From the IMG/VR virus record IMGVR_UViG_3300032116_000040, positions 58,085-122,084 of that record: a stretch of 64,000 nucleotides of DNA, one strand, 5' to 3'. Below the pieces are notes generated by a model, which was not told the DNA's origin, did no database searches, and saw only the letters and a list, made by a program, of their open reading frames with translations. The position numbers and the translations under genes are program-made. The DNA is from a virus. Its lineage: Duplodnaviria > Heunggongvirae > Uroviricota > Caudoviricetes. Each line of letters begins with the position of its first letter. Position 1 is the first letter of the stretch. This document shows positions 6,623 to 61,274 of this stretch, one piece after another.

Positions 6623-8056
6623 ATGGAAAACAAAGAAAAACAAATTAAAAAATTAGACCTTAAACAGAATGCGATTAAGATCTTAATTAACTCTATTTAT
6701 GGTGCCTTTGGAAACAAGTGGTTCTATTTTTACAATCCAGATATTGCGCAGTCCATCACTTTACAGGGACAGGATCTAATTAAGTTTTCAATTAAAGCAG
6801 TAAATCACTATTTTTTAGAAAAATGGCATCTTGATACTGAGTTACATCAAAAATTAGGAATCGATGGATATACTATTAATAAGATAGAAGACGAGGCTGC
6901 GATCTACACAGATACTGATTCAATCTATGTCCAGTTTGACTCTGCACTTGACTCAATAGTAGGGGCTAGCTTTACAAAAGACGAAGCATTGAATATATGT
7001 ATCAACATCGATCGATATCGACTCTCTAATTACTTTGATATTTGTTTTGAAAAATATGGGCGTCTGTTTAATACTAAGAATCGACTTAAGTTCAAATTAG
7101 AAAACCTTTCTGAGACTGGAATCTGGCTTAAAAAGAAGAACTATGCCATTCGAGTCGCATACGAACCCAATCCAAACTATGAGCTTGAGCCTCAACAAAA
7201 AAGGTATCTAATAATCAAGGGTCTTGAACCAGTAAAAGGATCATATCCAATCTGGGCTAGAGAAAAGCTAATCGATCTCACGTCTTTCATTATGGATCGA
7301 GGTAAACGTCTTGATATTGAAAAAGATATCGTGCCTCGACTTACTGCTCTTAAAAATGAAGCTCTTTCCCTGCATCCTGACGATCTTGCATTTAACTTTA
7401 ATATCAGAATATACAATAAATACGTTGCTAGTGAAGAGAGATTGGAACTTAAAAAAGGAATTTCCATCTTCCCTAGGGCAGCCGCCATCTATAATCACAT
7501 CCTGATCAAGACGGGACTTGTTGAAAAATACCCTAAGATTAGAGAAAAGGACAAGATCAAGTTTTATTATTGCAATCCTGAAACAAATGATGGAGGTCAC
7601 GACGTCTTTGCATATTCTCCTGGAACATATCCGGATGAAATCGCTCTGCTGATGGATATCGATGCTCAATTCTTTTCGCTAATAGTCGAACCTGTCAATC
7701 GTCTTCTTACTGCAATGAAGATGAGTTCGCTCGATATCAATCTAAAAAGGTCAGTCGATGTCGTCACAGTAAAGAGCAAAAAGGTTTTAACTGATGCTGA
7801 GATTTATCCTTTATACATCGTTGATCAAGAGACATTGGAATACGTTGAGGTTCCAGAGAAATTTTGGAAGATGATCGGTAACCCCGATGCTGAAATTCCA
7901 GAAGAAGATTTTCAAGAATATTTGGGAGTCATCACACGATATGGTCTAAACACAACGATTGTGCCCAAGCCGGAACTAGATAAGTACTTGAAGAGAATGA
8001 CTAAGAAAAAGGAGAAAAATAATCCTGTTCTTGAATTAGAGGAAGAAAATGATTAA
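6623..8056 (+). CDS. 43: family B DNA polymerase, C-terminal (palm/fingers/thumb) segment only; gp43B-like split polymerase
   Basis: KILINSIYGAFGN (KxxxNSxYG motif B) and AIYTDTDSIYV (YGDTDS motif C), close to T4 gp43 KIMLNSLYGALGN / YGDTDS. The ORF starts just before motif B. No exonuclease or motif A region lies upstream. Confidence 0.8.
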   Translation: MENKEKQIKKLDLKQNAIKILINSIYGAFGNKWFYFYNPDIAQSITLQGQDLIKFSIKAVNHYFLEKWHLDTELHQKLGIDGYTINKIEDEAAIYTDTDSIYVQFDSALDSIVGASFTKDEALNICINIDRYRLSNYFDICFEKYGRLFNTKNRLKFKLENLSETGIWLKKKNYAIRVAYEPNPNYELEPQQKRYLIIKGLEPVKGSYPIWAREKLIDLTSFIMDRGKRLDIEKDIVPRLTALKNEALSLHPDDLAFNFNIRIYNKYVASEERLELKKGISIFPRAAAIYNHILIKTGLVEKYPKIREKDKIKFYYCNPETNDGGHDVFAYSPGTYPDEIALLMDIDAQFFSLIVEPVNRLLTAMKMSSLDINLKRSVDVVTVKSKKVLTDAEIYPLYIVDQETLEYVEVPEKFWKMIGNPDAEIPEEDFQEYLGVITRYGLNTTIVPKPELDKYLKRMTKKKEKNNPVLELEEEND

Positions 8057-33235: not shown

Positions 33236-34194
33236 TAATTAAAAAACTTTTGTAATTTTTCCATCTCGTCAGGATTAGTTAGTATCTGTGAATATACTCT
33301 TTCTATCAAATATTTATAGGTTGCTGGTCTAGAATCAGCCATGTCGCTCTTTTTTTCATCGTCGATTGACACTTGAAAACGTAGGTGTTTTTTCAATATC
33401 TCATCACACTCGTATGTGACCGCTTTTGCTGATGCTTGCATCATGATAGAGGTGATCGGCTTTATCCAGTTTATTGCTCCCCAACCAGTTGTTTTTTCAT
33501 CTAAACTTTCTGAATATATTCCAGTACCTAGTGAAAGACACTCGATATTGCTTATATCAACGTCTGGTCGGCTACGTAAGACGTCAGCTACTGCTGCCAT
33601 CGCTGGATTATTAATGTACACTCCGCCGTCTACTAATAGACGACTCTTAGCTTTAAAATCCATCTCGTATGAAGGAAGATATGTGGGAGCAGCAGAAGTT
33701 GCTCTACATATTTCTTTTAACTTAGCGTTATATTCAGGTCCAGCGCTAGCTAGCCTGCTTTTAAACATTACTACCTCGTTGTTTTTAATGTCATACGAAC
33801 TTACAATGATGGGTTTTAAAGTATCCTTTAGTGTAGAATCTGAAAAATATTCACCCAATAGCCTGTCTAATCCATCAGGAGAAAACTTTGGATTAAATAT
33901 CGAGTTTATTCCAGTTATTGCTTTTGAAAATATGTTTCTCTTATATGGAAATATCTCAGTTCCCTTGTCAGTATATAGGGATATTAACTGGTCTAGGCTA
34001 ACTGCTGGCTTTTTTCCGTCTTTCGTATAGGTCAATCCGCAGGCTATTATTCCACCAGTCGAGGTTCCAGCAATGACATCAAAAAGCTCATGGATGAGTT
34101 TACCTTGGGTCTTTTCAATCTCCTTTAATATCAAGAGGGGAATTATTCCACGAAGACCTCCTCCGTCTAGTGACAGTATTCTAATTTTTTCCAT
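33235..34194 (-). CDS. patatin-like phospholipase
   Basis: LSLDGGGLRG (oxyanion GGGxR/KG), AGTSTGG (GxSxG nucleophile), LVDGGVYINNP (DGG catalytic Asp). Confidence 0.8.
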   Translation of the reverse strand: MEKIRILSLDGGGLRGIIPLLILKEIEKTQGKLIHELFDVIAGTSTGGIIACGLTYTKDGKKPAVSLDQLISLYTDKGTEIFPYKRNIFSKAITGINSIFNPKFSPDGLDRLLGEYFSDSTLKDTLKPIIVSSYDIKNNEVVMFKSRLASAGPEYNAKLKEICRATSAAPTYLPSYEMDFKAKSRLLVDGGVYINNPAMAAVADVLRSRPDVDISNIECLSLGTGIYSESLDEKTTGWGAINWIKPITSIMMQASAKAVTYECDEILKKHLRFQVSIDDEKKSDMADSRPATYKYLIERVYSQILTNPDEMEKLQKFFN

Positions 34195-34195
34195 G

Positions 34196-34897
34196 TTATA
34201 CTTTTATTTTATATGCAGTTGTTTTTGCTACTCCTTTAAGGGACCTAAGAGGTTCACACGAATGCAGTTGAAGTTCAGATAAGAGTCGACCGCTTCGTTT
34301 TCTCTTGCCTTCCCAACATCTCTGCTGATAATCGATGATCTCAAGCTTCATCTTTTTAGATGTCACCAAGTCCTCGATCTTTTTTTCTTCTGACTTTGGT
34401 AGGTTTTCAGTAAAGCTAAAGGTCACATAACCTGGCTCAGACACAGTTGACTCCATTCTAGATGCAGTATTGACCGTGTTTCCAAAGTAGTCCCAAAGCT
34501 TTTTTCCTTGGACATCAGTCTGTTTTTTATAGAGCGGACCCCAACAGATTCCCAAACGAATCGTCATTGATTTTTCTTTTATCTTGATAGGTTTTTCCCT
34601 AAGATCCATCTGTATGTCAAGCCCAGCTGCAACCGCTCTAAGTAAGGAGTTAGATCCTTCGAAGCTTACCATGTAACTATCGCCGATTGTTTTTACAATC
34701 ATGCCGTCATGCTTAGCTAAGATCTTTTTGATTCTTTTTCCGTGCTCTTCCAATGCTTCAAACATTCCGGCTTCATGTAGCTTCCATAGCTTAGAGCTCG
34801 ATTTAACATCAGTAAAAAGAATAGCTTGTTCTTTTTCTTGAAGCTTTTTTAAAGAGTCGACACTTTCCCAAATAGGATACGATAGTAAATGTTTCAT
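34196..34897 (-). CDS. class III nucleotidyl (adenylate/guanylate-type) cyclase domain protein
   Basis: LFTDVKSS (first metal Asp), KTIGDSYMVSF (second Asp), IRLGICWGPLY (R-x-G-x-x-x-G-P), YFGNTVNTASRMES (N...R transition-state residues). Confidence 0.7.
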   Translation of the reverse strand: MKHLLSYPIWESVDSLKKLQEKEQAILFTDVKSSSKLWKLHEAGMFEALEEHGKRIKKILAKHDGMIVKTIGDSYMVSFEGSNSLLRAVAAGLDIQMDLREKPIKIKEKSMTIRLGICWGPLYKKQTDVQGKKLWDYFGNTVNTASRMESTVSEPGYVTFSFTENLPKSEEKKIEDLVTSKKMKLEIIDYQQRCWEGKRKRSGRLLSELQLHSCEPLRSLKGVAKTTAYKIKV

Positions 34898-52894: not shown

Positions 52895-52984
52895 ATGGAA
52901 ACAATTATTGCAATTCTCATACCGATCGCCTTTGCGGCACTGATTCTTTTTTCCTACGCGATGTGGAAAAGAAATAACTTTTAA
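52895..52984 (+). CDS. 29-aa hydrophobic peptide (METIIAILIPIAFAALILFSYAMWKRNNF) directly upstream of the prs-like gene
   Basis: ATG with a TAA stop 10 nt before the prs-like ATG. One TM helix. Coding status uncertain. Confidence 0.25.
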   Translation: METIIAILIPIAFAALILFSYAMWKRNNF

Positions 52985-52994
52985 AACGACTAAT

Positions 52995-53894
52995 ATGAGC
53001 ATATCTAAACTAAACTTAACAAATCCGATGGATTCGGATGTAAAATTCAAGATCTCTCGGTTTCCTGATGGACAACAAACTGTAGATATCGAATCTGCAC
53101 CAATGTATATCAATGGATTAGATGTTAAGATCTATTCTCGAATGAATTCTTTTCGTGATATCGAATTGATTATTGCTGCCAATCAAGCTCTTAGAGAAAT
53201 GGCGGTAGGAACCGTTACCTTATATGTTCCTTATTTCTTGGGTGCACGCTCGGATCGTAAATTTCAACAAGGAGGAACCAATTACTTAAAGCAAGTGATT
53301 TGTCCAATCATCAATGCACAAAAATTCGATTGTGTAATTGTTTTAGATCCACACTCAGATGTACTCGAAGCTTGCTTAAATAACTTCGGAAAGATTGATA
53401 ACCATACAATCGTTAAGTATGCTCTTACAAATATCGATAATCGAAACGCCGCTCGAGACAGAATCTGTTTAGTTTCACCGGACGGCGGTGCTCTAAAGAA
53501 AATCTATGACATCGCACACGAGTTTCAAATTCATCATCTTGTCACGGCAATGAAACACCGCGACATTCAAACTGGAAAAATCAATCATACTGAAGTTCCG
53601 ACCTTGCCAGCTTCTCTTGATGGTGAAAAAATGAAATATGTTATAGTTGATGATATCTGTGATGGAGGTAGAACATTCACTGAATTGGCAAAAGCAATTC
53701 ATGCCCAGCAGCCGGAAGCTAAACTTTACTTAATCGTAACACATGGAATCTTTTCTGCAGGATTTGAAGATCTGAGCAAGTACTTTACTAAGATTTACAC
53801 ATCCAATTCTGTAAAAGATATCATGAATGAAAATGATGATACTGATGCAGAAAGAGCTGCAAAACAAATCGTAACACAATTTAACGTATTCTAA
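52995..53894 (+). CDS. ribose-phosphate pyrophosphokinase (PRPP synthetase) family protein; candidate ADP-ribose pyrophosphokinase of a phage NAD+ reconstitution pathway
   Basis: KFKISRFPDGQQTVDIE, YVPYFLGARSDRKF, LDPHSD and the PRPP-binding loop YVIVDDICDGGRTF parallel E. coli Prs (GRFSDGEVSVQI, IPYFGYARQDRR, VDLHA, VLVDDMIDTGGT). Confidence 0.75.
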   Translation: MSISKLNLTNPMDSDVKFKISRFPDGQQTVDIESAPMYINGLDVKIYSRMNSFRDIELIIAANQALREMAVGTVTLYVPYFLGARSDRKFQQGGTNYLKQVICPIINAQKFDCVIVLDPHSDVLEACLNNFGKIDNHTIVKYALTNIDNRNAARDRICLVSPDGGALKKIYDIAHEFQIHHLVTAMKHRDIQTGKINHTEVPTLPASLDGEKMKYVIVDDICDGGRTFTELAKAIHAQQPEAKLYLIVTHGIFSAGFEDLSKYFTKIYTSNSVKDIMNENDDTDAERAAKQIVTQFNVF

Positions 53895-54370
53895 TGAAGA
53901 TAATCAAACCTCCACACTCAATATCGAAAAACTACGATAGACGAACCAAAAGAGTGTTTTTAGCCGGCACGATAGAGATGGGAAACTCCCATGACTGGCA
54001 GAGCCAGGTGGAAGAGGCTCTCATTAATACTGAGTGCACGATATTAAATCCACGTAGAGAGGCATGGGATTCAAGTTGGGAACAGAGGATCGAGAGTCCT
54101 CAATTCTATCAGCAAGTCAATTGGGAACTGGATGCTCTTAATAAATCCGATCTGATCATCCTGAACCTCCTGCCTGACTCCAAATCACCTATCTCTCTTC
54201 TTGAATTAGGATTATACGCTAGTAGTGGAAAATTACTGGTATGCTGCCCAGATGGATTCTGGAGAAAAGGCAACGTTGAGATCGTGTGTGAGAGATACGA
54301 CATTCCACTATACGAAAGCCTAGCCGATCTTTTAAATTCACTTACGATAAATCAAGCTATAATAATATGA
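53894..54370 (+). CDS. nucleoside 2-deoxyribosyltransferase / Rcl (DNPH1) / LOG-like N-glycosidase superfamily protein
   Basis: N-terminal RVFLAGTIE (LAG motif) and SLLELGLYASSGK (catalytic Glu context) in a protein of about 158 aa. Translationally coupled on both sides. Confidence 0.45.
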   Translation: MKIIKPPHSISKNYDRRTKRVFLAGTIEMGNSHDWQSQVEEALINTECTILNPRREAWDSSWEQRIESPQFYQQVNWELDALNKSDLIILNLLPDSKSPISLLELGLYASSGKLLVCCPDGFWRKGNVEIVCERYDIPLYESLADLLNSLTINQAIII

Positions 54371-54543
54371 AAGAACAAAAATTTTTAATCATTGATGATG
54401 CATCTGAAGTAAATTCATACTTACGTGATGGATGGGAAGTAATTTCGGTAACAGCACAACATGTTGCAGCCGCAGGATCACATAGCTGGTCAGAAAAACT
54501 TGAAGGTAAATTTGCAGTAGTAATCGAAAAACAAAAACAATAA
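54367..54543 (+). CDS. small protein (58 aa) between the Rcl-like and NAMPT-like genes
   Basis: ATGA overlap with the upstream gene. Ends 3 nt before the NAMPT ATG. Confidence 0.35.
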   Translation: MKEQKFLIIDDASEVNSYLRDGWEVISVTAQHVAAAGSHSWSEKLEGKFAVVIEKQKQ

Positions 54544-54545
54544 AT

Positions 54546-56051
54546 ATGAATCCATTATTATTAACTGATGGTTATAAAACATCGCATAATAGACAGTATC
54601 CAGAAGGAACTACTCTAGTCTATTCAAACTTTACACCACGATCTAACAAGTACGCACCGAAAGGATGTGACGAAGTAGTAGTGTTTGGAACACAGATGGT
54701 CATGATTCAGCTTCACGAGATGTTTCAAAAAGATTTCTTTGATAAACCAAAAGATGATGTGTGTCGTGAAATGAAACAAGAATTGTCAATGTATTTGGGA
54801 ACAGAATATGACGTTTCTCACTTTGAAAAGCTACACGACTTGGGTCACTTGCCGATCCATGTTAAATCTCTACCTGAAGGAACCAAGGCACCGATTAAAG
54901 TTCCGGTACTTACGATCTATAACACGCATCCTGATTTCTATTGGATAACAAATTACTTGGAAACGATCCTTTCAAACCTATTGTGGAAACCAATGACATC
55001 AGCAACAATTGCTCATCAGTACAGAAAAGTATTGACCGAGTGGATGTTAAAGACAGATAAGGGCAATGCTTCATTCATTGACTGGCAAGGTCATGACTTC
55101 TCAATGAGAGGAATGGACTCAGTAGAAGCGGTAATTAGTTCTGGCTTGGGCCACTTAACATCATTCTGGGGCACCGATTCATTACCAACAATCTATGGTG
55201 CTCGTAAATACTATGGTGAAGAAGGTTTCTTTTGCGGATCAGTTCCTGCCACTGAACACTCAGTTATGTGTGCAGGTGGAAAAGAGGACGAAGTTGAGAC
55301 ATTCCGCAGATTGTTGAAGACATATCCTACCGGAATCCTTTCAGTTGTATCTGATACTTGGGATTTATTTAAAGTGTGTACAGAACACGTAGTTACTTTG
55401 AAAGAAGAGATCATGTCTCGTGACGGTAAGTTAGTTATTCGCCCTGACTCAGGAGATCCCGTTGATATTCTTTGTGGTAATACATTTACAAAACATGGTG
55501 AATATGTAGGAAAAGGCACATCATTTTATATCGAATCTACGGATGACACGCCTGACGCAAAGGGAGTAATTGAATTACTTTGGGATGTATTCGGTGGAAC
55601 TATCAATGAACAAGGTTACAAAGTTCTTGATTCACACATCGGAGCTATCTATGGTGACTCAATCACGATTGACAGAGCAAACGAAATCTGTAAGCGTTTA
55701 GAAGCAAAAGGGTTTGCATCAACAAACGTAGTGTTAGGTATTGGATCATTCACATATCAATACAATACCAGAGATACATTTGGTTTCGCAATGAAAGCAA
55801 CTTATGTTGAGGTAAATGGTGTTGGTAGAGAAATCTTTAAGGATCCGATTACTGATGATGGTACAAAGAAATCTGCAACAGGTTTATTAAGTGTTCACAA
55901 TCATGATGGTAAATATGTTTTAGTTGATCGTTGTACTTGGGAAGGTGAAGAAGTTAGTTCACTCCAAACCATTTATGAAGATGGTGAATTTGGTGTATTT
56001 TCAACTTTAACTGAAATTAGAGCTCGTTTAAAAGATGATAAGAAACTTTAG
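54546..56051 (+). CDS. nadV: nicotinamide phosphoribosyltransferase (NAMPT/NadV) family protein; candidate nicotinamide ADPR transferase
   Basis: MNPLLLTDGYKTSHNRQYPEGT N-terminus typical of NAMPT. 501 aa. GTDS and other family blocks present. Confidence 0.8.
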   Translation: MNPLLLTDGYKTSHNRQYPEGTTLVYSNFTPRSNKYAPKGCDEVVVFGTQMVMIQLHEMFQKDFFDKPKDDVCREMKQELSMYLGTEYDVSHFEKLHDLGHLPIHVKSLPEGTKAPIKVPVLTIYNTHPDFYWITNYLETILSNLLWKPMTSATIAHQYRKVLTEWMLKTDKGNASFIDWQGHDFSMRGMDSVEAVISSGLGHLTSFWGTDSLPTIYGARKYYGEEGFFCGSVPATEHSVMCAGGKEDEVETFRRLLKTYPTGILSVVSDTWDLFKVCTEHVVTLKEEIMSRDGKLVIRPDSGDPVDILCGNTFTKHGEYVGKGTSFYIESTDDTPDAKGVIELLWDVFGGTINEQGYKVLDSHIGAIYGDSITIDRANEICKRLEAKGFASTNVVLGIGSFTYQYNTRDTFGFAMKATYVEVNGVGREIFKDPITDDGTKKSATGLLSVHNHDGKYVLVDRCTWEGEEVSSLQTIYEDGEFGVFSTLTEIRARLKDDKKL

Positions 56052-56295
56052 TTCAATAATCCTAGTTGTAGTAATAACTGGGTTAATATATGGCGGAATA
56101 ATGTATCTTGCTATTGAAGATAGTAAGGTCTGTGATGAACAGGTCACATTGGATGATGGAACTTTGATCAAATCTACTAATGTAGTCTCTCGTGATAACG
56201 GAATGAGCACCATAGAAACCTGTGATGGAGAGCGCATACAGGTGCCTACTATAAAAATTAAAATGATTACCCGAGATGAAAGCAAAACTGATTAA
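56035..56295 (+). CDS. small membrane protein (86 aa)
   Basis: ORF track. N-terminal TM IILVVVITGLIYGGIMYLAI. Confidence 0.4.
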   Translation: MIRNFSSIILVVVITGLIYGGIMYLAIEDSKVCDEQVTLDDGTLIKSTNVVSRDNGMSTIETCDGERIQVPTIKIKMITRDESKTD

Positions 56296-60437: not shown

Positions 60438-61274
60438 ATGACCGATCAATTAGGCGACAGAATGAAGGACTTTTACGAAGACCGAACACGTTACAAGTTG
60501 GCACGTCGCACCAACACAATCATCCGCATCGACGGAAAAGCTTTCCATACTTATACTCGAGGACTTAAGCGTCCATTCGATGAAGGGTTAATGGAAGACA
60601 TGAACAAGACAACTGAGTACCTATGTCAGAATATCCAAGGTGCAAAATTTGGATACGTTCAATCAGATGAGATTTCAATTCTCATCACTGATTACGATGA
60701 CATTTCTACACATGCTTGGTTTGATGGTAACTTGCAGAAAATGGCAAGTATCGCTGCTTCATTGGCAACTGCAAAGTTTAACCAACTAAGAACACTAAGA
60801 AGAATGGAAGAACTTCATGATTACGAAATCATGAGCGTAGTGGAAGAAACTAAACTTGCAATGTTCGATGCTCGAGTATTTCAAATTCCTTACCAAGAGG
60901 AAGTGATTAATTACTTTATTTGGAGACAACAAGATGCTACAAGAAATTCTATTTCTTCTGTTGCTCAAGCTTACTTCTCCTCAAAGGAATTACATGGAAA
61001 GAAAACCAATGAAATGCAAGACATGCTGATGTTGGAAAAAGGAATCAATTGGAATGATTTTACCCCAAGAGAAAAACGAGGATCTCTTATCCGTAAAGTA
61101 GAAAAGACTTATGTGAAATTACAATCTGGACAAACAGTTCAAGTAAATCCTTCCCAAGTAGATCCTAGATTAAACGAAACATTCTCAAGAAACAAATGGG
61201 AAGCTGATAAAGAAACCCCAATCTTTTCGCAAGATAAATGTTATCTTCGTGAGTTAATGCCAAACCACAATTAG
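60438..61274 (+). CDS. Thg1-like protein (tRNA-His guanylyltransferase family 3'-5' nucleotidyltransferase)
   Basis: TIIRIDGKAFHTY, FGYVQSDEISILI and NLQKMASIAASLATAKF align with the Thg1 blocks VVVRLDGRNFHRF, IAYGQSDEYSFVF and FKRRASKFMTHVASQFAS. Confidence 0.65.
   Translation: MTDQLGDRMKDFYEDRTRYKLARRTNTIIRIDGKAFHTYTRGLKRPFDEGLMEDMNKTTEYLCQNIQGAKFGYVQSDEISILITDYDDISTHAWFDGNLQKMASIAASLATAKFNQLRTLRRMEELHDYEIMSVVEETKLAMFDARVFQIPYQEEVINYFIWRQQDATRNSISSVAQAYFSSKELHGKKTNEMQDMLMLEKGINWNDFTPREKRGSLIRKVEKTYVKLQSGQTVQVNPSQVDPRLNETFSRNKWEADKETPIFSQDKCYLRELMPNHN

What the first reader, a model, noticed from the sequence alone, without database searches (positions are those of the whole stretch)
52995..56051. 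Prs-like plus NAMPT-like cassette without an NMN adenylyltransferase: candidate phage NAD+ reconstitution (anti-NAD-depletion) pathway
A translationally coupled block encodes a PRPP-synthetase-family protein, an NDT/Rcl/LOG-superfamily N-glycosidase-like protein, a 58-aa protein and a NadV/NAMPT-family protein. I could not find an NMNAT (HxGH) gene in the window. Established knowledge: phages have been reported to rebuild NAD+ after depletion by defence systems (TIR/SIR2/Thoeris-type). One reported route uses a Prs-homologous ADP-ribose pyrophosphokinase plus a NAMPT-homologous nicotinamide ADPR transferase. The other uses NadV plus NMNAT. A Prs homolog next to a NAMPT homolog with no NMNAT matches the first route. 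The Rcl/LOG-like protein could feed ribose-5-P, or may indicate an alternative NMN-salvage wiring (NMP to R5P to PRPP to NMN).
Basis: partly seen in the sequence, partly recalled or inferred. Interest (0 to 1): 0.75.

Follow-up and report, generated by a model that had tools for sequence, protein, structure and literature searches.

The report
Phage NAD-rebuilding operon with extra glycosidase
This phage carries the known two-enzyme pathway that rebuilds NAD+ after bacterial defences destroy it, and wedged between the two enzymes is a third, uncharacterised enzyme that recurs in such cassettes in other phages and in bacterial ADP-ribose-recycling operons, which no paper I could search describes.

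Summary
The Prs-like protein is an Adps: it fails all Prs family cut-offs, keeps every Adps catalytic and ADPR-contact residue, and has the Adps-type PP loop. The NAMPT-like protein is a Namat: it scores 529 bits against the SPbetaL1 Namat crystal structure, has the identical GSFTYQYNTRD clamp motif, and groups with validated Namats at 100% bootstrap. The window has no NMNAT, Nudix or Macro gene. So this is NARP1, a known system found in about 4% of phages.

The embedded 158-aa NDT/DNPH1-fold protein (Pfam PF15891) is the new part. Of 80 viral loci chosen only for this gene, 52 carry Namat/Nampt or Adps within 6 kb (10 of 28 independent flank clusters). Gene orders vary, and some are KVP40-type NARP2 clusters. 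In Bacteroidota chromosomes it overlaps a Namat-type gene in NrtR-headed (ADPR-sensing) operons with Adps, NADAR, Tpt1, Macro and ARH genes. No searchable paper reports this.

It is probably an accessory N-glycosidase that serves the pathway, like Adpp and RyDEP. Its substrate is unknown. The 58-aa ORF is real but restricted to this phage lineage.

The parts
52995..53894 (+). Adps (ADP-ribose pyrophosphokinase, Prs-fold), 299 aa; first step of NARP1: ADPR + ATP -> ADPR-PP + AMP (inferred)
   Evidence: It falls below every NCBIfam Prs cut-off (TIGR01251: 91 bits against a cut-off of 113) and scores 218 bits on PHROG 619. blastp gives 134 bits to Bas60 Adps, 116 to ICP1 Adps and 58 to E. coli Prs; phmmer gives 103 bits to Gary Adps. 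The residues equivalent to ICP1 F18, R87, F92, H121, D161, K185, D212 and D213 are present as F23, R85, F90, H120, D163, K187, D219 and D220. The PP loop DDICDGGRTF is identical to Bas60's, whereas E. coli Prs has DDMIDTGGTL. The Prs C-terminal extension is missing (PMC13586617).
53894..54370 (+). NDT/DNPH1-fold (DrHyd superfamily, Pfam PF15891) protein, 158 aa; predicted accessory N-glycosidase of the NAD+/ADPR cassette, substrate unknown
54367..54543 (+). 58-aa conserved small protein (p58), lineage-restricted; function unknown
   Evidence: It has no Pfam, PHROG or NCBIfam match. Only 10 homologous clusters exist among 5.8 billion proteins, at 47-93% identity. A 75%-identical homolog keeps the same position after NDT on a 260-kb phage contig with different flanks. 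The AF2 model (pLDDT 79) is a beta-alpha-beta-loop-beta fold with a disordered loop at residues 37-41, and no fold match reaches E<=0.001. It does not match an aRad1 profile.
54546..56051 (+). Namat (nicotinamide ADP-ribose transferase, NAMPT-fold), 501 aa; second step of NARP1: ADPR-PP + nicotinamide -> NAD+ + PPi (inferred)
   Evidence: It scores 529 bits against the SPbetaL1 Namat structures 9w5x/9w5w, about 241 against human NAMPT and 186 against KVP40 Nampt. The SCH motif GSFTYQYNTRD (residues 400-410) is identical to SPbetaL1 and FADO. The SCL loop TPRSNKYAPKG has K35-Y36 where FADO has TPRSNKYFPKA. The catalytic core is conserved: D8, Y10, F185, R188, D211, R299, D301. A 100%-bootstrap clade joins it to SPbetaL1, FADO, ICP1 and Bas60 Namats and excludes NMNAT-adjacent Nampts.

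Best explanation
The block is a NARP1 NAD+-reconstitution operon of an uncultivated phage. I infer a Bacteroidota host. When a host defence (SIR2, TIR or SEFIR type) cleaves NAD+ into ADP-ribose and nicotinamide, the first gene product (Adps) would transfer pyrophosphate from ATP to the free ribose of ADPR, giving ADPR-PP. The last gene product (Namat) would then replace the pyrophosphate with nicotinamide, giving NAD+ directly, so no NMN adenylyltransferase is needed. Two extra genes lie between them and are translationally coupled to them. The 158-aa NDT/DNPH1-fold protein is, in my reading, a working accessory of the pathway and not a passenger. It would be an N-glycosidic-bond hydrolase or transglycosylase acting on a phosphorylated NAD+/ADPR-related nucleotide. 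It most likely releases free ADPR from an N-glycosidically linked ADPR derivative such as cADPR, N7-cADPR, His-ADPR or base-linked ADPR. That would both destroy a signal or by-product and feed Adps, as the Macro phosphatase Adpp and the glycosidase RyDEP do in other NARP1 operons. The 58-aa protein is a lineage-specific partner of unknown role. What is shown: gene anatomy, family membership by sequence and structure features, and recurrent genomic linkage. What is inferred: all enzyme activities, the defence-evasion role, and the substrate of the NDT-like enzyme. My probabilities are about 0.9 for NARP1 identity, about 0.75 for a functional link of the NDT-like gene to NAD+/ADPR metabolism, and about 0.35 for the ADPR-releasing substrate class specifically.
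For: Namat identity rests, judged against the criteria of PMC12774641. Adps identity rests, judged against PMC13586617 and bioRxiv 10.1101/2024.02.11.579819. The window has no NMNAT, Nudix or Macro gene. Coupling of the genes is shown.

For the NDT-like gene, 52 of 80 viral loci chosen only for carrying it have Namat/Nampt or Adps on the same strand within 6 kb. Ten different gene orders occur. The median NDT-Namat gap is 171 bp. Ten of 28 flank-independent clusters show the link, giving P about 1e-6 against a 5.4% upper-bound background. It is also embedded in KVP40-type NARP2 clusters. Independent metagenome contigs show Adps-HAD-NDT-Namat, Adps-x-x-NDT-Namat and Adps-NDT-p58-x-Namat.

In 20 of 80 bacterial loci it sits in NrtR-headed operons with Adps-like, Namat-type (GSYTYEYVTRD), NADAR, Tpt1, Metallophos, Macro and ARH genes. 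NrtR is released from DNA by ADPR (PMC2330246). The fold and the invariant acidic and basic residues fit an active nucleotide N-glycosidase. Feeder genes inserted in NARP1 have precedent.
Against: No activity was measured. The window is only part of the genome; contigs carrying this gene reach 0.2-1 Mb, so an NMNAT elsewhere cannot be excluded. The linkage counts are inflated by shared ancestry: 35 of the 52 linked viral loci fall in one single-linkage flank cluster. Both locus sets are the 80 best matches to the query, not random samples. Many homologs stand alone in bacterial chromosomes, and none of the nine cultured-phage lineages examined has it next to NARP genes. Phage and stand-alone bacterial versions share 60-68% identity and the same invariant residues, which points to a common metabolite rather than a specialised immune signal. 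The position of E104 as catalytic nucleophile is inferred from motif and Pfam alignment, not from a residue-level structural superposition.
Confidence: 0.72

Rival explanations
1. This would be canonical nicotinamide salvage. The NDT-like enzyme hydrolyses nucleoside monophosphates to ribose-5-P, the Prs-like enzyme makes PRPP, the NAMPT-like enzyme makes NMN, and a host or distant phage NMNAT finishes NAD+.
For: All three folds are compatible with these reactions. SPbetaL1 Namat can still make NMN from PRPP in vitro. The NDT-like gene also occurs in PRPP-dependent NARP2 clusters.
Against: The Prs-like protein fails all Prs family cut-offs and has the Adps PP loop in place of the Prs ribose-5-P phosphate loop DTGGT. 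The NAMPT-like protein has the complete adenine clamp and sits in the Namat clade, far from KVP40-type Nampt. SPbetaL1 Adps gave no Prs-type product in the published assay. In bacteria the same gene trio is under an ADPR-sensing regulator.
Confidence: 0.05
2. This would be NARP1 plus a nicotinamide-supplying enzyme. The NDT-like protein cleaves a pyridine nucleoside or nucleotide (NR, NMN, NaMN or similar) to release the base. That keeps Namat or Nampt supplied when nicotinamide leaks out of the cell or is deamidated.
For: The gene's closest and most constant neighbour is the nicotinamide-using enzyme, not Adps (median gaps 171 bp and 424 bp; a 4-nt overlap in the bacterial operon). It occurs with both NARP1 and NARP2, which share nicotinamide as substrate. 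Stand-alone bacterial orthologs with identical invariant residues suggest an ordinary metabolite as substrate.
Against: NMN is the intermediate of NARP2, so in those clusters an NMN nucleosidase would create a futile cycle (inference). Four Flavobacterium loci have NrtR-Adps-NDT-ARH with no Namat within 6 kb. The bacterial operons are otherwise filled with enzymes that release ADPR, not nicotinamide.
Confidence: 0.18
3. This would be NARP1 plus an unrelated passenger. The NDT-like protein is a general nucleotide-pool enzyme (DNPH1- or MilB-like dNMP/NMP hydrolase) that merely lies in the same auxiliary-metabolism region, and the 58-aa ORF is a neutral filler.
For: The closest characterised folds are nucleoside/nucleotide hydrolases and transferases. 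In cultured jumbo phages the gene lies among replication and nucleotide genes such as DNA ligase, PhoH, exonuclease and dCMP deaminase, with no NARP genes nearby. Most bacterial homologs (60 of 80) have no NAD-related neighbours.
Against: The overlapping start and stop codons with Adps and p58 in the window, the linkage that persists through many gene orders and in two kingdoms, the embedding in both NARP types, and membership of ADPR-regulated operons are all hard to explain by chance co-location.
Confidence: 0.13

Closest known systems
NARP1 (Adps + Namat) of phages Bas63, SPbetaL1, FADO and ICP1 (Osterman et al. 2024; Lan et al. 2026; Liu et al. 2026)
   Same: The two core enzymes come in the same order, with Adps upstream of Namat. 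All published catalytic, ADPR-contact, PP-loop and adenine-clamp residues are present. There is no NMNAT nearby. Namat is 52-53% identical to the SPbetaL1 and FADO enzymes.
   Different: Two extra genes sit between the core enzymes: the PF15891 NDT-like gene and a 58-aa ORF. Adps is only 29-35% identical to the validated Adps proteins. The phage has no nucleotide-level match among 50,697 deposited phage records.
NARP1-AP (Adps - Macro phosphatase Adpp - Namat, Vibrio phage Gary) and RyDEP-NARP1 (mycobacteriophage DyoEdafos)
   Same: An accessory enzyme gene is inserted between or beside Adps and Namat. In those systems the accessory converts another NAD+-derived molecule (ADPR-1''-phosphate, or 2'/3'cADPR) into ADPR for the pathway.
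   Different: The inserted enzyme here has a different fold (NDT/DNPH1/DrHyd) and therefore different expected chemistry, acting on an N-glycosidic bond. The window has no Macro or RyR domain. Many related loci carry both Adpp and the NDT-like gene, so the two are not alternatives.
NARP2 (KVP40 Nampt + bifunctional Nmnat-Nudix)
   Same: Both rebuild NAD+ with a NAMPT-fold enzyme. The same NDT-like family is embedded in some NARP2-type clusters (L045-L047, L060, L061, L071).
   Different: The window lacks any Nmnat. Its NAMPT-fold enzyme belongs to the Namat clade (186 bits to KVP40 Nampt against 529 to SPbetaL1 Namat).
Nucleoside 2-deoxyribosyltransferase / DNPH1 (Rcl) / MilB family, and the uncharacterised PDB entry 4mcj (BDI_0649, Parabacteroides distasonis)
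   Different: Identity to any characterised member is only 9-18%. There is a distinct invariant NPRR dyad and further invariant basic residues. No member of PF15891 has an assigned activity. The genomic context is NAD+/ADPR metabolism, not nucleoside salvage.
Bacterial nrtR-prs-nadV operons (Rodionov et al. 2008) and bacterial NARP1 homologs (Lan et al. 2026)
   Same: A Prs-like and a NadV-like gene lie under an ADPR-responsive NrtR regulator. The Bacteroidota clusters found here have this core plus the NDT-like gene.
   Different: The published descriptions do not mention a PF15891 gene or the large ADPR-processing operon seen here (NADAR x2, Tpt1, Metallophos, DUF4291, Macro, ARH). The window has no regulator gene of this type.

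Membership tests
NARP1: Namat | Selectivity-clamp helix motif GS-X-phi-X-phi-X-phi-TRD, with aromatic residues at motif positions 3 and 7 (PMC12774641) | tested here: met
   GSFTYQYNTRD at residues 400-410 is identical to SPbetaL1 and FADO; F402 and Y406 correspond to F392 and Y396.
NARP1: Namat | Selectivity-clamp loop (beta1-beta2) with Arg/Lys/Tyr at its third position; when that residue is Lys or Tyr, the next residue stacks on adenine | tested here: met
   TPR-S-N-K35-Y36 in the window; FADO has TPRSNKYFPKA. The stacking geometry itself was not modelled.
NARP1: Namat | Conserved Nampt-like catalytic core (SPbetaL1 D13, Y15, F189, R192, D215, R306, D308, catalytic His) | tested here: met
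   D8, Y10, F185, R188, D211, R299 and D301 are present, and the PATEHSVM segment is identical.
NARP1: Namat | Falls in the Namat clade, separate from Nmnat-associated Nampt | tested here: met
   In an NJ tree of 22 sequences, a 100%-bootstrap clade joins it to SPbetaL1, FADO, ICP1 and Bas60 and excludes five NMNAT-adjacent Nampts. Bit scores are 529 to SPbetaL1 Namat and 186 to KVP40 Nampt.
NARP1: Adps | Prs-fold protein that is not a canonical Prs | tested here: met
   It is below the cut-off of all 11 NCBIfam Prs models (best 91 bits against 113). PHROG 619 scores 218 bits. The best blastp scores are to Bas60 and ICP1 Adps (134 and 116 bits), against 58 to E. coli Prs. Only one bona fide Prs was used as outgroup, so no broad phylogeny was made.
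NARP1: Adps | Catalytic lysine (SPbetaL1 K162 / ICP1 K185) and acceptor-site residues (ICP1 F18, R87, F92, H121, D161, D212, D213) | tested here: met
   K187, F23, R85, F90, H120, D163, D219 and D220.
NARP1: Adps | Remodelled PP loop for ATP-donor binding, and loss of the Prs C-terminal alpha11-alpha12 module (PMC13586617) | tested here: met
   DDICDGGRTF is identical to Bas60; ICP1 has DDICDGAASF and E. coli Prs DDMIDTGGTL. The alignment ends without the Prs C-terminal segment.
NARP1 (system) | Adps and Namat within 10 genes of each other | tested here: met
   They are two genes apart on the same strand with overlapping or abutting ORFs.
NARP1 (system) | No Nmnat in the same phage (published surveys never found NARP1 and NARP2 together) | tested here: inconclusive
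   None is present in the 64-kb window, but the genome is probably larger and the rest could not be read.
NARP1 (system) | ADPR + ATP -> ADPR-PP; ADPR-PP + nicotinamide -> NAD+; protection against SIR2/TIR/SEFIR NAD+ depletion | not testable with these tools
   This needs biochemistry and infection assays.
NARP2 | KVP40-type Nampt together with an Nmnat (NadM-Nudix) | tested here: not met
   The window has no Nmnat or Nudix gene, and the NAMPT-fold protein lies outside the KVP40-type clade.
NARP1-AP / RyDEP-NARP1 | Macro-domain Adpp or RyR-domain RyDEP gene in the operon | tested here: not met
   The window has no Macro or RyR domain. Gary Adpp gives no window hit at E<=1.
Canonical ribose-phosphate pyrophosphokinase (Prs) | Reaches the curated family score; has the DTGGT ribose-5-P phosphate loop | tested here: not met
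NDT / DNPH1 (DrHyd) superfamily | Rossmann-like fold with a conserved acidic nucleophile after strand 4 ('E-x-G') | tested here: met
NDT / DNPH1 (DrHyd) superfamily | Demonstrated N-glycosidase or transglycosylase activity, and substrate identity | not testable with these tools
   No member of PF15891 is characterised. 4mcj is a structural-genomics entry, and I found no activity reported for YtoQ.
aRad1 (small NADase inhibitor), considered for p58 | About 70-aa protein with W-EGY-ATGQ and TYWGC-FDNE motifs | tested here: not met
   A profile built from seven aRad1 sequences gives no hit to p58 or to any window ORF (best E 0.41).

The most novel reading that the evidence does not exclude
PF15891 proteins would be a previously unrecognised enzymatic step of ADP-ribose/NAD+ recycling, shared by phages and bacteria. 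They would hydrolyse N-glycosidically linked ADPR derivatives, for example the immune signals N7-cADPR or His-ADPR, or canonical cADPR, to free ADPR. NARP1 then turns that ADPR back into NAD+. This would give phages a third class of 'feeder' counter-defence after Adpp and RyDEP. The NrtR-controlled Bacteroidota operons would then be a complete ADPR-to-NAD+ salvage pathway induced by ADPR itself.
Probability: 0.3. Interest if true: 0.8.

Novelty: new variant of a known kind. Interest (0 to 1): 0.55.

Why it matters
The core of the finding is ordinary. NARP1 is a published anti-defence pathway present in about 4% of sequenced phages, and this is one more member from an uncultivated phage.

The value lies in the extra gene. 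Two recent studies showed that genes inserted into NARP1 operons reveal which non-canonical NAD+ breakdown products bacteria use against phages: ADPR-1''-phosphate from aRES, and 2'/3'cADPR from Thoeris. A third accessory with a different fold, linked recurrently to both NARP1 and NARP2 and to ADPR-sensing bacterial operons, points to another NAD+- or ADPR-derived molecule that matters in infected cells. It also gives a large uncharacterised family (about 8,000 or more proteins, with one orphan crystal structure) a concrete and testable metabolic setting. The Bacteroidota operons further suggest that ADPR-to-NAD+ recycling through Adps and Namat is a regulated bacterial housekeeping pathway and not only a phage weapon.

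Tried and rejected
- **Nucleotide search.** Megablast of the region against 50,697 phage records found nothing.
- **cr111_1 insert.** The 143-aa gene between Namat and Adps in crAss-like phage cr111_1 is unrelated to the NDT-like protein. It is a weak HAD-like hydrolase.
- **Cultured phages.** I looked for one with the NDT-NARP linkage to serve as an experimental model. Tunturi_5, Domovoi, BUDD, CcrColossus, RsoM2USA, Slickus01, DLP_6, Lak-A2 and vB_EliS-L02 all lack it. RsoM2USA has both an NDT-like gene and a NARP2-type Nampt, but they lie more than 100 kb apart.
- **'unk204' family.** I first took the recurrent 204-aa family for a new accessory. It is Adpp.
- **p58.** It is not aRad1-like and has no significant fold match. 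The 58-aa ORF in the same position in L115 is unrelated.
- **Domain fusion.** The 1,262-aa Tunturi_5 protein gave no recognisable second domain.
- **YtoQ.** The second-best fold match has no reported activity in the papers I could search.
- **Signals.** Sigma-70 promoter and terminator scans were no better than shuffled sequence.
- **Other.** The afdb50 fold library was unavailable.

Full report
**Observation.** The window holds four + strand ORFs at 52995-53894 (299 aa), 53894-54370 (158 aa), 54367-54543 (58 aa) and 54546-56051 (501 aa). The junctions are TAATG, ATGA and a 2-nt spacer. The next ORF overlaps the last gene by 17 nt. Terminator-like sites inside the block are no more frequent than in shuffled sequence. 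No Shine-Dalgarno sequences precede the starts. The window is a phage genome, with a helicase, a family-B DNA polymerase, a primase and a T4-like portal, and most of its genes have no family match. It has no nucleotide-level relative among 50,697 phage records. The identical four-gene block occurs on several freshwater metagenome contigs, and some contigs carrying it are 0.2-1 Mb long.

**The NAMPT-like protein is a Namat.** Lan et al. (PMC12774641) define Namat by three features: a Nampt-like catalytic core, a conserved helix motif GS-X-phi-X-phi-X-phi-TRD whose aromatic residues stack on the adenine of ADPR-PP, and a variable loop that supplies one more stacking residue.
- The window protein has GSFTYQYNTRD, identical to the crystallised SPbetaL1 enzyme and to FADO.
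- Its loop TPRSNKYAPKG follows the 'Lys then stacking residue' rule and nearly matches FADO's TPRSNKYFPKA.
- All core residues map (D8, Y10, F185, R188, D211, R299, D301).
- It scores 529 bits against the SPbetaL1 Namat structures, about 241 against human NAMPT and 186 against KVP40 Nampt.
- In a bootstrapped NJ tree it lies in a 100%-supported clade with the four experimentally studied Namats and apart from Nampts that sit beside an NMNAT.

**The Prs-like protein is an Adps.**
- It falls below the curated cut-off of every NCBIfam Prs model.
- It matches the phage family PHROG 619.
- Its best scores are to Adps of Bas60, ICP1 and Gary (134, 116 and 103 bits), against 58 for E. coli Prs.
- Against the ICP1 Adps structure paper (PMC13586617), it keeps the catalytic lysine (K187 = ICP1 K185 = SPbetaL1 K162).
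- It keeps the ADPR contacts F23, R85, F90, H120, D163 and D219/D220.
- It has the remodelled PP loop (DDICDGGRTF, identical to Bas60, against DDMIDTGGTL in Prs).
- It lacks the Prs C-terminal module.

**No NMNAT in the window.** A Pfam scan of the other 97 ORFs returned complete lists containing no cytidylyltransferase-like, Nudix or Macro domain. KVP40 Nmnat and a metagenomic NMNAT-Nudix find nothing. The rest of the genome could not be read, so this holds for the window only. Osterman et al. never found NARP1 and NARP2 in the same phage. I conclude with about 0.9 confidence that the core is NARP1, a known system present in about 4% of phages. The activities themselves are inferred.

**Linkage in viruses.** I fetched the 80 IMG/VR loci most similar to this protein, chosen for nothing else.
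- 50 have a Namat or Nampt homolog and 37 an Adps homolog on the same strand within 6 kb; 52 have at least one. There are ten different gene orders.
- The NDT-Namat gap is 400 bp or less in 35 of 50 loci (median 171 bp). That is tighter than NDT-Adps (median 424 bp).
- Shared ancestry inflates these counts: 35 linked loci form one single-linkage cluster by shared flank genes. Even so, 10 of 28 flank-independent clusters show the link. Against an upper-bound background of 5.4% (NARP1 plus NARP2 frequencies per whole genome), P is about 1e-6.
- In six loci the partner is a KVP40-type NARP2 cluster: NMNAT-Nudix, Adpp-like Macro, NDT, Nampt.
- Independent metagenome contigs show Adps-HAD-NDT-Namat, Adps-84aa-58aa-NDT-Namat and Adps-NDT-p58-175aa-Namat.
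- None of the nine cultured-phage lineages with this gene shows the linkage.

**Linkage in bacteria.** Among the 80 best bacterial loci, 60 have no NAD-related neighbour and look like stand-alone chromosomal genes. The other 20, nearly all Bacteroidota and including contigs longer than 1 Mb, place the gene in an operon headed by NrtR. The uncultured Flavobacterium locus L173 reads NrtR, Adps-like, NADAR, NADAR, Tpt1/KptA, calcineurin-like phosphoesterase, DUF4291, NDT-like (4-nt overlap with the next gene), Namat-type (GSYTYEYVTRD), Macro, ADP-ribosylglycohydrolase. Four Flavobacterium loci read NrtR, Adps-like, NDT-like, ARH, with no Namat within 6 kb. Rodionov et al. showed that NrtR is released from DNA by ADPR, and noted unexplained nrtR-prs-nadV operons. 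So the NDT-like gene belongs to an ADPR-sensing, ADPR-processing neighbourhood in cells as well as in phages.

**Prior knowledge.** Inserted genes in NARP1 that convert other NAD+ products to ADPR are known: Macro Adpp for ADPR-1''P, and RyDEP for 2'/3'cADPR. No paper in the searchable library combines NARP1 with a deoxyribosyltransferase-like gene, or mentions PF15891. The broad 2022 survey of viral NAD+/ADPr systems says viruses carry only ADP-ribosyl-cyclase versions of this superfamily. It reports NADAR, not NDT-like genes, beside NadV and NadM. NARP3 is PnuC plus NadR and is unrelated.

[quoted passage not shown] Most likely it frees ADPR from an N-glycosidically linked ADPR derivative. 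It might instead supply nicotinamide. The supply model fits the tight pairing with Namat or Nampt and the stand-alone bacterial orthologs, but it would be futile with NMN in NARP2 clusters. The passenger model fits the cultured jumbo phages but not the cross-kingdom linkage.

**The 58-aa ORF.** It is conserved in only 10 clusters among 5.8 billion proteins and always lies after the NDT gene. The model is a small beta-alpha-beta-loop-beta fold with a disordered loop and no fold match. It is not aRad1-like. Its role is unknown.

**Verdict.** The embedded PF15891 gene makes it a new variant worth an experiment.

Noticed in passing
window 33238-34897 (- strand): A 233-aa protein with a class III nucleotidyl cyclase domain (Guanylate_cyc, 83 bits; 34199-34897) lies directly upstream of a 319-aa patatin-like phospholipase (96 bits; 33238-34194) on the same strand, 4 nt apart. 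A cyclase plus lipase-effector pair resembles a Pycsar/CBASS-type signalling module, here encoded by a phage.
   Followed up: no
window 60438-61274 (+); L002 (FADO) 6692-7420; L115 3297-4031 and 9087-10142; L201 1-642: RNA-repair genes recur near NARP1. The window has a Thg1-like tRNA-His guanylyltransferase 4.4 kb downstream of Namat, and FADO has one 2.2 kb downstream of its Namat. A jumbo-phage contig flanks its cassette with a CCA-adding-type nucleotidyltransferase and a T4 RNA ligase 1, and another contig has an RNA ligase nearby. The window also has one ORF with a HAD_SAK_1 ('Swiss Army Knife RNA repair') domain in its first half; I did not map its coordinates.
   Followed up: partly
L173 1148-9583; also L140, L153-L156, L181, L188: Bacteroidota chromosomes carry an 11-gene operon headed by NrtR: Adps-like, two NADAR, Tpt1/KptA, calcineurin-like phosphoesterase, DUF4291, NDT-like, Namat-type, Macro and ADP-ribosylglycohydrolase. 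It looks like a complete ADPR-releasing and ADPR-to-NAD+ recycling unit under an ADPR-sensing repressor.
   Followed up: partly
L175 4404-7322; also L157, L174, L179: Four Flavobacterium loci have NrtR, Adps-like, NDT-like (4-nt overlap with Adps) and ADP-ribosylglycohydrolase, but no Namat-type gene within 6 kb. An adenylosuccinate-synthetase-like gene and a NADAR gene lie downstream. An Adps without an adjacent Namat is unexplained.
   Followed up: no
L110 6570-7004; L004 (crAss-like phage cr111_1) 5481-5912; also L016-L018, L021, L024, L035, L087: A small (about 144 aa) HAD-like hydrolase (Hydrolase_3, E 1e-6 and 6e-3) is embedded between Adps and NDT/Namat in unrelated phages. In cr111_1 it is annotated 'phosphoheptose isomerase'. 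It may be a further class of NARP1 accessory.
   Followed up: partly
L045-L047, L060, L061 (for example L047 5390-6001): An Adpp-like Macro gene lies inside KVP40-type NARP2 clusters, between NMNAT-Nudix and NDT. By tblastn it belongs to the same family as the NARP1-locus ORFs that match Vibrio phage Gary Adpp at E 1e-18 to 1e-14. Adpp has been described as a NARP1 accessory, and NARP2 does not use ADPR as its direct substrate.
   Followed up: partly
L010 2661-5083; also L076, L080, Bacillus phage Kirov (H19), cr85_1 (L003 3989-5509): In a near-identical relative of the window phage the Namat gene is split into two pieces about 830 bp apart. Several other phages also show split Namat genes. 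This suggests intron or homing-element insertions in this gene.
   Followed up: no
L005 4989-8777 (Tunturiibacter phage Tunturi_5): The NDT-like domain forms the N-terminus of a 1,262-aa protein annotated as MutT/NUDIX hydrolase, encoded next to the portal gene. It may be a virion-packaged polyvalent protein. I could not recognise any other domain with the references at hand.
   Followed up: partly
window 52897-52986 (+) and 56035-56295 (+): A 29-aa hydrophobic ORF (METIIAILIPIAFAALILFSYAMWKRNNF) lies just upstream of Adps. An 86-aa ORF with a hydrophobic N-terminus overlaps the 3' end of Namat by 17 nt, and an ORF of the same length in the same position was called on independent contigs of the same phage.
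   Followed up: no
L035-L037 region of cultured phages: L006 7350-8609, L007 2169-3464, L008 6572-7759: In Brevundimonas, Xanthomonas and Caulobacter jumbo phages, the NDT-like gene lies within a few genes of a DNA ligase gene and not near any NARP gene. I did not determine whether this is meaningful.
   Followed up: no
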